The notes beneath the pieces are model-generated. The model made no database searches and was not told the origin of the DNA. It saw only the letters and a list, made by a program, of their open reading frames with translations. From NCBI RefSeq assembly GCF_001677475.2, contig NZ_CP015229.1: a stretch of DNA of 64,000 bases; one strand, given 5' to 3'. The position numbers and the translations under genes are program-made. Every line of letters begins with the position of its first letter. Positions within the stretch are counted from its first letter, which is position 1. Positions 53,040 through 56,029 of the stretch are shown piece after piece. The DNA is from Escherichia coli (GTDB taxonomy: Bacteria; Pseudomonadota; Gammaproteobacteria; Enterobacterales; Enterobacteriaceae).

Positions 53040-53123
53040 ATGAAAATTATACTCTGGGCTGTATTGATTATTTTCCTGATTGGGCTACTGGTGGTGACTG
53101 GCGTATTTAAGATGATATTTTAA
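53040..53123 (+). CDS. yohP: 27-aa small membrane protein
   Basis: ATG 53040; translation MKIILWAVLIIFLIGLLVVTGVFKMIF; not in supplied ORF track because it is under 60 aa. Confidence 0.7.
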   Translation: MKIILWAVLIIFLIGLLVVTGVFKMIF

Positions 53124-53149
53124 AATTAATTAATGTCATCAGATCCGAA

Positions 53150-54800
53150 AATAACGAGAATATTTCAGTCTCTCATCCTGTTGCGCTCCTGTCATGTGCA
53201 TTGCTTCATATAATCACTGGCGCAAGGAACGCGCAGGGGGCGGCCAATCGCCGCCGCCCCCTGCACCCCCGGGCTCTGGCGAACAAAATCGCCGCTGCGC
53301 GGTGCCCTCGGCTTATCCCTTGCGGCTACCGGGTCGGGCGCGAGGTAACATATATGGACGCTCCCGGAATGCAATGCTTTCTTCAGTTATGTAATAAAAC
53401 GGGTAGGTGCAGCCATATATCCGGTTTCTGATGGGATTTTTATCCCGAACCATGATGAAATCCGCCAGGCAGGTACCAATCATCCTCTGCGGGCTAACTT
53501 GCCCTTGTTACCTCTCGGTGTATCCTGCCTGCGGTCTTACCTGTTTTGCCATCTTCTGAAGTCACCTGCACCTACCAGGACGTTAACTTTTTTTCAGCAC
53601 CTCGTCAGATTGACTGACCTTGTGTCAGGCGAGCTGCCGAGGTTGATATTCAGTATTGTGTGACAATATTGACCACATGATCCTCGCTGTTTTTGCCGCC
53701 ATGGCGACAACAGCTACATTGTAGTGCTTCCGCTCAAGGAGTCCCTGAAGCCAGGAATTCTCCTCAACCGCGCCGTTTCGGTTGACCCAGGCGGTAAGTG
53801 CGCGTGCGCCGTGAACCAGCAGGTATCGGAAATATCCATCTCCACGTTTGCTGATCCCTCCCAGTTGTGTTTCCCGCCGCTGGAATGTTCCTTTGGTGTC
53901 AGCCCCAGCCATGAAGCGAACTGCTTTGCGGTACTGAATTGTCGGGCATTACCCACTGCTGCTACCACATAAGTGGCCGTTAGCATGCCAACCCCCGGGA
54001 TCTTGGCCATTCTCTGGCAGGCTTCCTGCGTTCTATACCAGGAGGCCAGAGCTTCTTCTACCTGTTTAACTTGTTCTTCAAGTTCCCGGATATGTTTAGA
54101 CTGTCTGTAGATGCTGGTTCTGACAAAGGGAGATAAACCATTTTCGCCATCCTCCAGAATGGCTGGCAGCTCACGGGTTAAATGGTTTTGTCCGGCCGCA
54201 ATCGTAATACCAAACTCAGCAAGTGTGGCTCTTAAACTATTGGCACAGGCAATCCGCTCACGGATAAGTATTCCCCGTTCAGTGTGTAACGCTAAAACGG
54301 CCTGCTGCTCTTCGGTTTTTATCTGAACAAAACGCATATTCGGACGGGTTACCGCTTCGCAGATTGCTTCAGCATCTGCTGCATCCGTCTTGTTCGTTTT
54401 CACATAAGGCTTCACATACTGCGGAGGTATGAGTTTTACCTCATGACCATAGCGGGTGAATAATCGCGCAAAATAATGACTGGATGAGCAGGCTTCCATG
54501 CCAATCAGACAAGGTTCCAGTTGAATCACAAACTGAACAAACTTAGCCCGGGTGAGCTTTTTACGCAAAATAGTATGGCCTTCATGATCGACACCATGAA
54601 GCTGAAAAACGTTCTTTGCCAGGTCGATACCAAGAGTTGATACTTTCATGTGGACGCTCCTAATTTTTCAGGACGTATTGCAACGATCCAGTCTGGTACT
54701 TTGATACCGTAAAATCTGGAGCGTCCATCTCATTATCCCTGTAAAACGCGCCCTCAGCCCACATCCATGTGGGCTGCCCCGGCCTCCAGGGAACGCCTCG
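53150..54800 (-). mobile_element. IS110-family insertion sequence (boundaries approximate)
   Basis: Contains DEDD-type IS110-family recombinase reading frame (53625-54649) flanked by ~120 bp upstream and ~450 bp GC-rich structured sequence downstream; as far as I recall, not present at this position in K-12. Confidence 0.6.
53625..54649 (-). pseudogene. IS110-family transposase/recombinase with frameshift
   Basis: N-terminal 311-aa ORF (53714-54649) carries conserved ...GLTPKEHSSGGK then goes out of frame; C-terminal motifs (LGGISKRGDGYFRYLLVHGA...) continue in the overlapping ORF 53625-53912; frameshift near 53867. Confidence 0.7.
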
Positions 54801-54879
54801 GCGATTTTGGCGCCACCAAACAACCGTGCGGCCTATTGATAAAGAGTTAACACATTGTCAAAAAACATCACTATGGTTT

Positions 54880-55827
54880 TTAGAGTTTCTCGATATCAAT
54901 TACCTGAATAGCCCTTGCAATATCAGGGGAATTATTCAACACCCGAACATGCTGAAATAATTCCGTTGCTTCATCGTATTCTTTACGCAAATAACTCAAC
55001 CACTGTTTAATCCGCGCAACGTGATATAACCCGGTATCGCCCTGCTTTTCCAGACGGGTATATTTTTGCAGCAAAGCAACCACCTCCGGCCACGGCATTC
55101 GCGGTTCGTTATATTTTACCACCCGGCTCAGGTTGGGAATATTGAGTGCCCCGCGACCAATCATCACTGCGTCACAGCCGCTGATCGCCATGCATTGTTG
55201 CGCACTCTGCCAGTCCCAGATTTCACCGTTGGCAATCACCGGAATATTCAGCCGCTGGCGAATCTCGCCAATCGCCTGCCAGTCAATATGCTCCGCGCGG
55301 TAACCCTGCTCTTTTGTCCGCCCATGTACTACCAGCTCCGTAGCGCCAGCCTGTTGCACCGCATCGGCGATTTCAAATTTCTTCTCACCGCTGTCCCAGC
55401 CCAGACGCACTTTTACGCTGACGGGCAAATGCGCTGGTACAGCTTCACGCATCGCTTTGGCACCCTGGTAGATGAGTTCAGGATCTTTGAGTAACGTCGC
55501 GCCGCCGCCGCTACCGTTAACCGTTTTCGACGGGCAGCCGCAATTGAGATCCACGCCCCAGGAACCTAACTCCACCGCACGGGCGGCGTTCTCTGCCAGC
55601 CATTGAGGGAACTGACCTAACAACTGCACGCGCACTAGCGTACCGGAAGGTGTCCGGCTGGCGTTTTGTAGCTCAGGGCAAATGCGATGAAAGACTTTTA
55701 CCGGCAGCAGTTGATCCACCACGCGGACAAACTCGGTGATGCACAGATCGTAGTCGTTAACTTCGGTCAGCAATTCACGCACCAGAGAGTCGAGTACACC
55801 CTCCATCGGTGCCAGTAACACACGCAT
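54880..55827 (-). CDS. dusC: tRNA-dihydrouridine synthase C
   Basis: 315-aa product from Met 55827; DUS-family TIM-barrel motifs. Confidence 0.93.
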
Positions 55828-56029
55828 ATCATCACCCGCAAAAAAATGAGGCGCTATGTTAGCGCCTATGGTCAGCGGATTAAAGGTCTGCAAAGAGGGA
55901 TTGCTGCAAACTGCATTCCCTCTCTATGCTTGATGTATGCCTGAGTTCGCTGCTCATTGCGTAATGCCCGGGAGCGAAAAAATAAGCGCTGATTTCTTAA
56001 TGTGATCGGTAGCACGTTTTACGAATTAA

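What the first reader, a model, noticed from the sequence alone, without database searches (positions are those of the whole stretch)
53150..54800. IS110-family insertion between yohP and dusC with frameshifted recombinase and a long structured non-coding flank
A DEDD-type IS110-family recombinase reading frame (minus strand) is split by a frameshift near 53867: the N-terminal frame ends after ...SSGGK and the C-terminal motifs continue in another frame. It is flanked downstream by ~450 bp of GC-rich non-coding sequence. IS110-family elements encode a structured guide (bridge/seek) RNA in their non-coding end, so this flank is a candidate for such an RNA. The frameshift could be a genuine inactivation or a sequencing error in a homopolymer-poor region.
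Basis: partly seen in the sequence, partly recalled or inferred. Interest (0 to 1): 0.5.

Follow-up and report, generated by a model that had tools for sequence, protein, structure and literature searches.

The report
Frameshifted ISEc81 with its guide RNA
This is a copy of the already catalogued E. coli insertion sequence ISEc81, whose transposase gene is broken by a one-base deletion while its built-in guide (bridge/seek) RNA gene and ends are intact; it is an ordinary member of a known class.

Summary
A 1,385-bp IS110-family element (IS1111 group) lies between yohP and dusC at window 53351-54735, minus strand. K-12 has the empty site. Its transposase is 99% identical to ISfinder ISEc81. One G is missing between 53867 and 53868, right after SSGGK, which splits the 341-aa ORF. 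None of 297 copies in 175 complete E. coli genomes share the deletion.

The "~450 bp GC-rich flank" is two different things. Window 53124-53350 (GC up to 0.72) is host intergenic DNA that K-12 also has. Only 53351-53624 (GC 0.48) belongs to the IS.

That IS part encodes a ~150-175-nt structured RNA (53402-53576, minus strand). A covariance model built only from distant relatives hits it at 104.7 bits, and also hits the experimentally validated ISEc11 seekRNA region. Across relatives, 19 of 24 base pairs show compensatory changes, and two loop segments track each element's own insertion site.

Durrant et al. 2024 already list ISEc81 with a bridge RNA in its right end, so this is already known.

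Side observation: the target is the loop of a hairpin in a conserved repeat that resembles TwoAYGGAY RNA and a CsrA-binding site.

The parts
53351..54735 (-). Whole ISEc81-type element, 1,385 bp here and 1,386 bp in intact copies. Ends are placed by the IS1111 '7 nt beyond the left repeat, 3 nt beyond the right repeat' convention. An AT dinucleotide is ambiguous at both junctions.
   Evidence: Empty site in K-12. Identical ends and flanks at other loci and in Kluyvera. Transposase 99% identical to ISfinder ISEc81.
54729..54735 (-). Left-end 7-nt extension, TAATGAG
   Evidence: Relatives show the same (T/C)(A/G)ATGNN pattern.
54718..54728 (-). Left subterminal inverted repeat, ATGGACGCTCC
   Evidence: Perfect 11-bp inverted repeat with 53354-53364 (I8).
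54647..54727 (-). 5' leader hairpin. The left repeat (54711-54727) pairs with 54651-54667, which contains the Shine-Dalgarno AGGAG (54657-54661) and abuts the ATG (54647-54649).
   Evidence: I1. Fold -30.2 kcal/mol, z -4.36. A matching complement sits next to the ATG in many relatives.
53870..54649 (-). Transposase residues 1-260 in the authentic frame: DEDD/RuvC-like domain, coiled coil, and the start of the C-terminal domain including GLTPKEHSSGGK
53867..53868 (-). Frameshift site. One G of codon CAG (Q261) is missing between these two bases.
   Evidence: All 297 copies in 175 E. coli genomes are one base longer here.
53625..53867 (-). Transposase residues 262-341 plus the stop codon (53625-53627), now out of frame with the N-terminal part
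   Evidence: (profile positions 270-342).
53351..53624 (-). 3' non-coding region of the IS, 274 nt
53402..53576 (-). Predicted bridge/long-seek RNA, 175 nt, closed by an 11-bp outer stem (53566-53576 with 53402-53412). The covariance-model core is 53411-53558.
   Evidence: I9. Fold z -4.22. CM hit 104.7 bits, E about 1e-30, the only hit in the window. Covariation.
53462..53536 (-). Target-binding stem-loop, equivalent to the short (~82 nt) seekRNA of ISEc11. Stem 53524-53534 with 53462-53473; small hairpin 53491-53504.
   Evidence: Same arrangement in ISEc11.
53506..53517 (-). 'T' guide, CGAGAGGUAACA, complementary to the top strand of the right half of the target (TGTTACCTCGCG; 11 of 12, 9 contiguous)
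   Evidence: I7..
53479..53489 (-). 'B' guide, CAGAGGAUGAU, same sense as the target top strand across the junction. GGATG is 5 contiguous; CAG^GGATG gives 8 with a one-base bulge; AGGATG gives 6 on the ACAAGGATG target variant.
53413..53459 (-). Donor-side module. UUCAUCA (53453-53459) is either the 3' strand of stem A or a left-end guide. Hairpin 53423-53451. GGAUAUAUGG (53413-53422) matches the right terminus ...CCATATA|T.
   Evidence: The terminus and guide change together across relatives: ATATA/GGATATATG, ATGTA/GGATGTATG, ACAAA/GGACAAATG, ACACA/GGACACATG.
53369..53374 (-). -35-like TTGCAT. After circularisation it would sit 16 nt upstream of a TATAAT formed across the right-left junction (..CCATATA|TAATGAG..).
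   Evidence: Sequence read directly. Junction promoters are reported for ISEc11 (PMC11187229). Inferred here.
53351..53364 (-). Right subterminal inverted repeat GGAGCGTCCAT (53354-53364) plus the 3-nt extension ATA (53351-53353)
53200..53350 (-). Host repeat, downstream half in IS orientation. It starts with the right half of the target, TGTTACCTCGCGCCC. GC-rich.
   Evidence: Present in K-12 without the IS. Multi-copy in E. coli.
54736..54835 (-). Host repeat, upstream half in IS orientation. Contains hairpin GCCCACAUGGAUGUGGGC and the left half of the target hairpin, GGGCGCGUUUUACAGGGA.

Best explanation
Window 53351-54735 (minus strand) is an isoform of the ISfinder element ISEc81, an IS1111-group member of the IS110 family. 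In outline: a DEDD/serine recombinase works with a ~150-175-nt RNA transcribed from the 274-nt region downstream of its gene. One stem-loop of this RNA carries two short guides. One guide pairs with the top strand of the right half of the target. The other pairs with the bottom strand across the junction. Together they direct the circularised element into ...ACAGGGA|TGTTACCTC..., which is the loop of a hairpin in a conserved host repeat. A second module carries a segment matching the element's own right terminus. In this copy a one-base deletion after codon 260 removes the last 81 residues of the C-terminal domain from the reading frame. The copy therefore most likely cannot move unaided. Its ends and RNA gene are intact, so an intact ISEc81 elsewhere in the cell could still mobilise it.

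Shown here: identity, boundaries, frameshift, RNA homology and covariation, and guide-target matching. Inferred from ISEc11 and IS621 experiments: RNA expression, RNA-protein complex formation, the circular intermediate and the junction promoter.
For: Empty site in K-12 and exact boundaries. The intact allele is 341 aa, scores 357.6 bits on NF033542, matches PF01548 and PF02371, and is 99% identical to ISEc81. There is a perfect 11-bp subterminal inverted repeat with 7-nt and 3-nt extensions. The same target is used at yohP-dusC, yegH-asmA and lysO-aqpZ, and in Kluyvera, always in the same orientation and without a longer duplication.

A covariance model built from 38 relatives with only 45-54% transposase identity gives one hit in the window: 53411-53558 (-), 104.7 bits. 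It also hits the NCR of ISEc11, whose seekRNA was shown experimentally, at 77.3 bits. It finds 84 hits in 80 sources, nearly all full length and just 3' of the transposase gene. In the resulting alignment 96.7% of cells are paired, 19 of 24 pairs show compensatory changes, and the covariation score is 0.638 against 0.189 shuffled and at most 0.114 slid.

Guides track each element's own target. Mean exact run is 7.0 (self) vs 3.6 (non-self) for T, and 6.2 vs 3.3 for B; strand-flipped controls give 3.6 and 3.4. The window element scores 9 and 5. Durrant et al. list ISEc81 with a bridge RNA in the RE. The frameshift was established.
Against: There are no expression data for the RNA and no activity data for ISEc81 itself. 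The B guide of this element is short: 5 contiguous nt on this target. The outer stem and the left-end recognition segment could not be settled, because UUCAUCA fits both an intramolecular stem (GAUGG/UCAUC) and pairing to the left end. The covariation alignment was fitted to the model. Without reads, the deletion cannot be told apart from an assembly error.
Confidence: 0.87

Rival explanations
1. The element is a fully functional ISEc81, and the one-base deletion is a sequencing or assembly error.
For: All 297 other copies in 175 complete E. coli genomes are intact at this position. The element is otherwise 99.2-99.8% identical to intact copies, so it is young. It is a single-base indel.
Against: The lost base is not in a homopolymer (CAGCAA to CACAA). 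The copy also carries another private change at 53489, so private mutations do occur in it. No reads are available to check.
Confidence: 0.35
2. The non-coding flank is ordinary conserved intergenic DNA and holds no IS-encoded RNA.
For: This is true for 53124-53350 and 54736-54879, which K-12 has without the IS.
Against: Window 53351-53624 is absent from the empty site. It travels with the transposase gene in E. coli, Kluyvera, Pectobacterium and about 75 distant relatives, and shows strong covariation.
Confidence: 0.02
3. The two frames are joined by programmed ribosomal frameshifting, so a full-length transposase is still made.
For: GGGAAAC lies at the break.
Against: Every other copy has a single continuous ORF. 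The heptamer is not in the X_XXY_YYZ register of the upstream frame (GGC GGG AAA CAC). The change is private to this copy.
Confidence: 0.01
4. It is an IS110-group element like IS621, with the guide RNA upstream of the gene in 54650-54735.
For: The leader is strongly structured.
Against: The leader is only 86 nt, and its hairpin is the left repeat pairing with the ribosome-binding site. The covariance model hit is downstream only. Long subterminal repeats and a long right end are IS1111-group traits. Durrant et al. list the RNA location as RE.
Confidence: 0.02

Closest known systems
ISEc81 (ISfinder; IS110 family, IS1111 group)
   Same: The intact allele of this element is 99% identical in protein to the ISEc81 transposase given in the source data of Siddiquee et al.. 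It has the same 341-aa length. Durrant et al. list ISEc81 with a bridge RNA in the right end.
   Different: This copy has a private one-base deletion (53867/53868) and a private C-for-U change in the B loop (53489). No ISfinder nucleotide entry was available, so the published ends could not be compared.
ISEc11 and its seekRNA (Siddiquee et al. 2024, PMC11187229)
   Same: Subterminal repeats, 7-nt left extension and a long 3' non-coding region. The RNA is homologous: the covariance model hits L092:1688-1835 at 77.3 bits. The top-strand guide lies 5' and the bottom-strand guide 3' of the same small hairpin.
   Different: Transposases are distant; in the paper's identity matrix ISEc81 is only about 32-44% identical to the other IS listed. 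The target differs: GTGAAAATACTG versus ACAGGGA|TGTTACCTC. ISEc11 has experimental proof (RNA co-purification, reprogramming); ISEc81 has none.
IS621 bridge RNA and recombinase (Durrant et al. 2024, PMC11208160; Hiraizumi et al. 2024, PMC11208158)
   Same: A DEDD/RuvC-like plus serine 'Tnp' domain recombinase, and one RNA carrying both target-matching and donor-matching segments.
   Different: In IS621 the RNA is in the left end, upstream of the gene. The order of the strand-specific guides is reversed (abstract). The terminal repeats are only 2-3 bp. Whether the ISEc81 donor module is a true internal loop like the IS621 donor-binding loop is unresolved.
IS4321 / IS5075, ISYen1, ISEch3
   Same: Durrant et al. 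place them in the same transposase cluster as ISEc81 (file 4). ISYen1 and ISEch3 are 68% and 64% identical. All home to a defined sequence in a repeated DNA element.
   Different: [quoted passage not shown] ISEc81 targets a chromosomal hairpin repeat.
TwoAYGGAY RNA (Rfam RF01731), for the host target repeat and not for the IS
   Same: Two adjacent hairpins with A-Y/R-GGA-Y loops inside a longer closing stem. The uninterrupted K-12 copy scores 30.9 bits, E 0.0076. TwoAYGGAY has been proposed to bind CsrA.
   Different: The score is below the gathering threshold of 43. The second loop reads AGGGAU rather than AYGGAY. Other copies did not reach E 0.1 in a larger search.

Membership tests
IS110 family transposase | N-terminal DEDD (RuvC-like) domain | tested here: met
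   PF01548, E 1e-14, residues 6-146. NF033542, 357.6 bits against a cut-off of 140. D9, E52, D89 and D92 are invariant in the alignment.
IS110 family transposase | C-terminal PF02371 domain with the GL-P----S(t)G motif | tested here: met
   PF02371, E 4.4e-24, residues 211-289. The motif reads GLTPKEHSSGG. In the window copy the domain is cut by the frameshift just after this motif.
IS1111 group | Subterminal inverted repeats of 7-17 bp with short terminal extensions | tested here: met
   11-bp perfect repeat, 54718-54728 with 53354-53364. Extensions are TAATGAG and ATA, the same pattern as in about 50 relatives. Criteria taken.
IS1111 group | The longer non-coding region lies downstream of the transposase gene | tested here: met
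   274 nt downstream against 86 nt upstream.
IS1111 group | Sequence-specific, orientation-specific insertion without a conventional target duplication | tested here: met
   Same target and orientation at three E. coli loci and in Kluyvera. Only an AT (or T) is shared at the two junctions.
ISEc81 (named element) | Near-identity to the ISfinder reference | tested here: met
   Protein is 99% identical to the ISEc81 sequence in PMC11187229 source data. The ISfinder nucleotide comparison could not be made.
seekRNA / bridge RNA | Conserved structured RNA encoded in the non-coding end, homologous to a validated example | tested here: met
   The covariance model, built without ISEc81 or ISEc11, hits both. 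19 of 24 pairs show compensatory changes.
seekRNA / bridge RNA | [quoted passage not shown] | tested here: met
   T guide 9 contiguous (11 of 12); B guide 5 contiguous (8 with a bulge). Self versus non-self statistics across 38 elements.
seekRNA / bridge RNA | Segment(s) matching the element's own ends (donor recognition) | tested here: inconclusive
   The right-terminus match (GGAUAUAUG) changes together with the terminus across relatives. The self versus non-self test has no power because ends are shared among elements. The left-end segment is confounded with stem A.
seekRNA / bridge RNA | RNA is expressed, binds the transposase and is required for transposition | not testable with these tools
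   Shown for ISEc11, ISPa11, ISKpn4 and ISPst6, but not for ISEc81.
Rfam TwoAYGGAY (host repeat) | Score at or above the family gathering threshold | tested here: not met
   30.9 bits against a threshold of 43. It should not be filed as a member; this is a resemblance only.

The most novel reading that the evidence does not exclude
ISEc81 and its Pectobacterium relative home to the GGA-containing loops of a conserved, multi-copy enterobacterial structured repeat. The repeat resembles TwoAYGGAY RNA, and its loop UUACAGGGAUGU is close to the CsrA SELEX consensus. If that repeat is a transcribed CsrA-binding element, then ISEc81 presence or absence (about 3% of E. coli genomes) would switch individual CsrA-binding RNAs off. 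The IS would also be exploiting a regulatory RNA gene family as its safe harbour.
Probability: 0.12. Interest if true: 0.55.

Novelty: already known. Interest (0 to 1): 0.2.

Why it matters
For the finding itself, little. It is a degenerate copy of a catalogued insertion sequence, and published surveys had already predicted its guide RNA class and location. The practical value is in annotation. The element's true ends are 53351-54735, and the transposase is a pseudogene, or needs re-sequencing. The RNA gene at 53402-53576 is missed by Rfam 15. The GC-rich flank should be annotated as host repeat. The explicit guide-target assignment for ISEc81 could serve as one more natural example for people who reprogram IS1111-type systems. 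If the target repeat proves to be a CsrA-binding RNA, the insertion polymorphism would gain regulatory interest.

Tried and rejected
Rfam 15 scans of the window region and of related loci found no bridge/seek RNA family. The hits AgvB (22.9 bits, gathering threshold 56) and mir-611 (20.2, threshold 90) are chance matches.

The 30-nt uninterrupted target was searched elsewhere in the window and gave 0 matches.

The outer stem P0 could not be tested on the MAFFT alignment A2, because ISEc81 is misaligned by two columns relative to the others. A per-sequence helix search found a (N)TTGC/GCAA(N) stem in most relatives but not all. P0 is therefore supported for ISEc81 (11 bp) but not proven family-wide.

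Self versus non-self tests for the donor-side segments were uninformative, because many elements share their ends.

The simple consensus scan found no minus-strand sigma-70-like promoter inside the integrated element, neither upstream of the transposase gene nor upstream of the RNA. This agrees with the ISEc11 report that the promoter forms only at the circle junction.

Programmed frameshifting was considered and rejected (see rivals).

K-12 yegH-asmA lacks the exact target motif, so K-12 has only two perfect empty targets among the sites examined.

Literature on 'ISEc81' gave only mentions in lists of mobile elements.

Full report
**What is in the sequence.** yohP is at 53040-53123 (+) and dusC at 54880-55893 (-). 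K-12 MG1655 has 372 bp between these genes. That DNA aligns to window 53124-53349 and 54735-54879, leaving about 1,385 bp that K-12 lacks. The junctions read GGTAAC|AT|ATATGGACGCTCC ... GGAGCGTCCATCTCATT|AT|CCCTG on the plus strand, so an AT dinucleotide is ambiguous at both ends. A perfect 11-bp inverted repeat (ATGGACGCTCC / GGAGCGTCCAT) lies a few bases inside each end. With the IS1111 convention of a 7-nt left and 3-nt right extension, the element is 53351-54735 on the minus strand. Only 132 of 5,426 complete E. coli genomes have the insertion at this locus, and 179 carry the element anywhere, in 1-4 copies.

**Identity.** Intact copies encode a 341-aa protein. It scores 357.6 bits on NCBIfam NF033542, 'IS110 family RNA-guided transposase' (cut-off 140), and matches Pfam DEDD_Tnp_IS110 and Transposase_20. 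It is 99% identical to the ISEc81 transposase in the source data of Siddiquee et al. 2024. It is 68% and 64% identical to ISYen1 and ISEch3. Subterminal repeats, the 7/3 extensions, a long 3' non-coding region and site-specific insertion place it in the IS1111 group as defined.

**The frameshift.** Compared with two intact copies, the window lacks one base between 53867 and 53868. On the coding strand CAG-CAA (Q261-Q262) has become CA-CAA. The frame changes straight after ...GLTPKEHSSGGK, and residues 262-341 are read only in another frame. The site is not a homopolymer. A 60-nt probe across it matched 297 places in 175 genomes, every one of them one base longer (98.4%). The deletion is therefore private to this source. 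I judge a real inactivating mutation more likely (about 0.6) than an assembly error (about 0.35), but only reads can decide. Programmed frameshifting is not credible, because all other copies have a single ORF.

**The flank is two different things.** The GC-rich part is found in genomes without the recombinase. It is a repeat present at a median of 3 places per E. coli genome.

**The IS-encoded RNA.** Rfam 15 has no matching family. Within 53351-53624 an 11-bp stem (53566-53576 with 53402-53412) encloses 153 nt. The 175-nt RNA folds at -63.1 kcal/mol, z -4.22.

I collected 80 loci encoding relatives: Kluyvera at 96% identity, Pectobacterium at 69%, and the rest at 45-54%. I defined the ends of 53 of them. 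An alignment of the last 240 nt of 45 elements gave an RNAalifold consensus with 25 pairs, 21 of which carry compensatory changes.

A covariance model was then built from 38 distant relatives only, leaving out ISEc81, the Kluyvera and Pectobacterium copies and ISEc11. It gave these results:
- One hit in the 64-kb window: 53411-53558 (-), 104.7 bits, E about 1e-30.
- A hit on the 3' non-coding region of ISEc11 at 77.3 bits, the region to which that element's seekRNA reads were mapped experimentally.
- 84 hits in 80 sources, nearly all full length and immediately 3' of the transposase gene on the same strand.

On the model-based alignment 96.7% of cells are paired and 19 of 24 pairs have changes on both sides. 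The covariation score is 0.638, against 0.189 in shuffles and at most 0.114 when partners are slid. This alignment is fitted to the model, but the independent MAFFT/RNAalifold result agrees.

**Guides.** In IS orientation the target is ...GGGCGCGTTTTACAGGGA|TGTTACCTCGCGCCC....
- The 5' side of the internal loop of the first stem-loop reads CGAGAGGUAACA (53506-53517). It is complementary to the top strand TGTTACCTCGCG (11 of 12, 9 contiguous) (I7).
- The 3' side reads CAGAGGAUGAU (53479-53489). It has the same sense as the top strand across the junction. GGATG gives 5 contiguous, CAG^GGATG gives 8 with one bulged A, and AGGATG gives 6 on the ACAAGGATG variant of the target.
- These are the positions and the 5'-T/3'-B order reported for ISEc11, whose own guides (…AACAGUAUUUU and GUGAAAAUA) I could read at the homologous places.

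Across 38 distinct elements the T segment matches its own right flank with a mean exact run of 7.0 nt, against 3.6 for other elements' flanks. The B segment gives 6.2 against 3.3, and strand-flipped controls give 3.6 and 3.4. The Pectobacterium relative keeps the scaffold and the donor-side sequences but has different loop sequences and a different target, GCCGCAGGGA|CGCGGCGAAAG. This is natural retargeting.

**Donor side.** Downstream of the target stem-loop lie UUCAUCA, a hairpin (53423-53451) and GGAUAUAUGG (53413-53422). The last segment has the sequence of the right terminus plus the first flank base, and it changes with the terminus in relatives:
- ATATA with GGATATATG
- ATGTA with GGATGTATG
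- ACAAA with GGACAAATG
- ACACA with GGACACATG

. UUCAUCA varies together both with an upstream GAUGG, which RNAalifold pairs as 'stem A', and with the left-end extension (for example TAATAGT with ACUAUCA). I cannot say whether it is a stem strand or a left-end guide. The membership row for donor recognition is therefore marked inconclusive.

**Expression (inferred).** The simple consensus scan found no minus-strand sigma-70-like promoter inside the integrated element. Joining the ends would create TTGCAT-16 nt-TATAAT across ...CCATATA|TAATGAG..., as reported for ISEc11. The 5' leader folds into a -30.2 kcal/mol hairpin (z -4.36) in which the left repeat pairs with the Shine-Dalgarno region. 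A matching complement next to the ATG is common in relatives.

**Comparison with what is known, and novelty.** ISEc81 is an ISfinder entry. Durrant et al. 2024 predicted bridge RNAs in 93% of IS1111 elements, and their table lists 'ISEc81 | RE | IS1111'. Siddiquee et al. 2024 demonstrated the seekRNA mechanism for four IS1111 members. NCBI already names the protein 'IS110 family RNA-guided transposase'. The finding is therefore already known in kind and as an element. What is added here is the exact anatomy in this window, the explicit guide-target assignment, and the correction of the flank.

**Side observation: the target.** The uninterrupted K-12 repeat gives a sub-threshold match to Rfam TwoAYGGAY (30.9 bits, gathering threshold 43, E 0.0076). 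It folds (z -4.26) as two adjacent hairpins inside a long closing stem. Their loops are ACAUGGAUGU and UUACAGGGAUGU. The second is close to the CsrA SELEX consensus RUACARGGAUGU, whose ACA and GGA are conserved and which binds best with GGA in a hairpin loop. TwoAYGGAY has itself been proposed as a CsrA-binding RNA. ISEc81 inserts between GGA and UGU of the second loop, and the Pectobacterium relative inserts at GGGA|CG of the equivalent of the first hairpin. The hairpin stems differ between Escherichia and Pectobacterium by compensatory changes. Other copies did not reach E 0.1 in a larger search, so this remains a lead and not a classification.

Noticed in passing
window 53200-53350 + 54736-54835; uninterrupted in L003:7230-7381 (-) and L090 (lysO-aqpZ): The host repeat that ISEc81 targets resembles Rfam TwoAYGGAY RNA (30.9 bits, below the threshold of 43). 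It carries two hairpin loops, ACAUGGAUGU and UUACAGGGAUGU, that look like high-affinity CsrA sites. It has about 3 copies per E. coli genome and is also present in Kluyvera and, diverged with compensatory stem changes, in Pectobacterium.
   Followed up: partly
L009 (NZ_CP076706.1, O170:H18), yohP-dusC intergenic: In this strain the whole intergenic repeat is inverted relative to K-12 (alignment score 403 for the reverse complement against 4 forward). The IS is accordingly in the opposite orientation relative to yohP and dusC. The repeat itself may therefore be mobile or invertible.
   Followed up: partly
window 54647-54727 (-): The left subterminal repeat pairs with a third copy of the repeat sequence that overlaps the Shine-Dalgarno and abuts the ATG (-30.2 kcal/mol, z -4.36). 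A covarying complement next to the ATG is seen in many relatives. Possible explanations are translational occlusion or a third recombinase-binding site.
   Followed up: partly
L009, L012 (right junction CCATATA|CGTTACC) and L013 (C at both junctions): Some targets have C instead of T at the first base after the insertion point while the B guide keeps U. This is compatible with a U:G wobble to the bottom strand, and suggests tolerance at the core position.
   Followed up: no
window 53489: This copy has a private change in the B-side loop (GCAGAGG, against GUAGAGG in all other E. coli and Kluyvera copies read). It lies next to the B guide.
   Followed up: no
hits H11-H30 (e.g. NZ_CP029747.1): In many genomes the match to this locus is split into two pieces spanning about 3.1 kb, and the annotated features under the match include an IS3-family transposase in addition to the IS110-family one. 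This suggests a second IS inserted at or in this locus; its exact position was not determined.
   Followed up: no
window 53146-53206 (+); L003:7089-7149: Weak match to Rfam AgvB (anti-GcvB sRNA), 22.9 bits against a threshold of 56, just downstream of yohP and also present in K-12. Probably chance.
   Followed up: no
L090 (K-12 lysO-aqpZ) and K-12 yohP-dusC, 3' of the repeat in IS orientation: The repeat is followed by a conserved GGAGCGCAACA(A/G)GATG, that is, a Shine-Dalgarno-like sequence plus ATG opening a tiny ORF (MRD* at yohP-dusC, MMNQHITTS* at lysO-aqpZ). Its significance is unknown.
   Followed up: no
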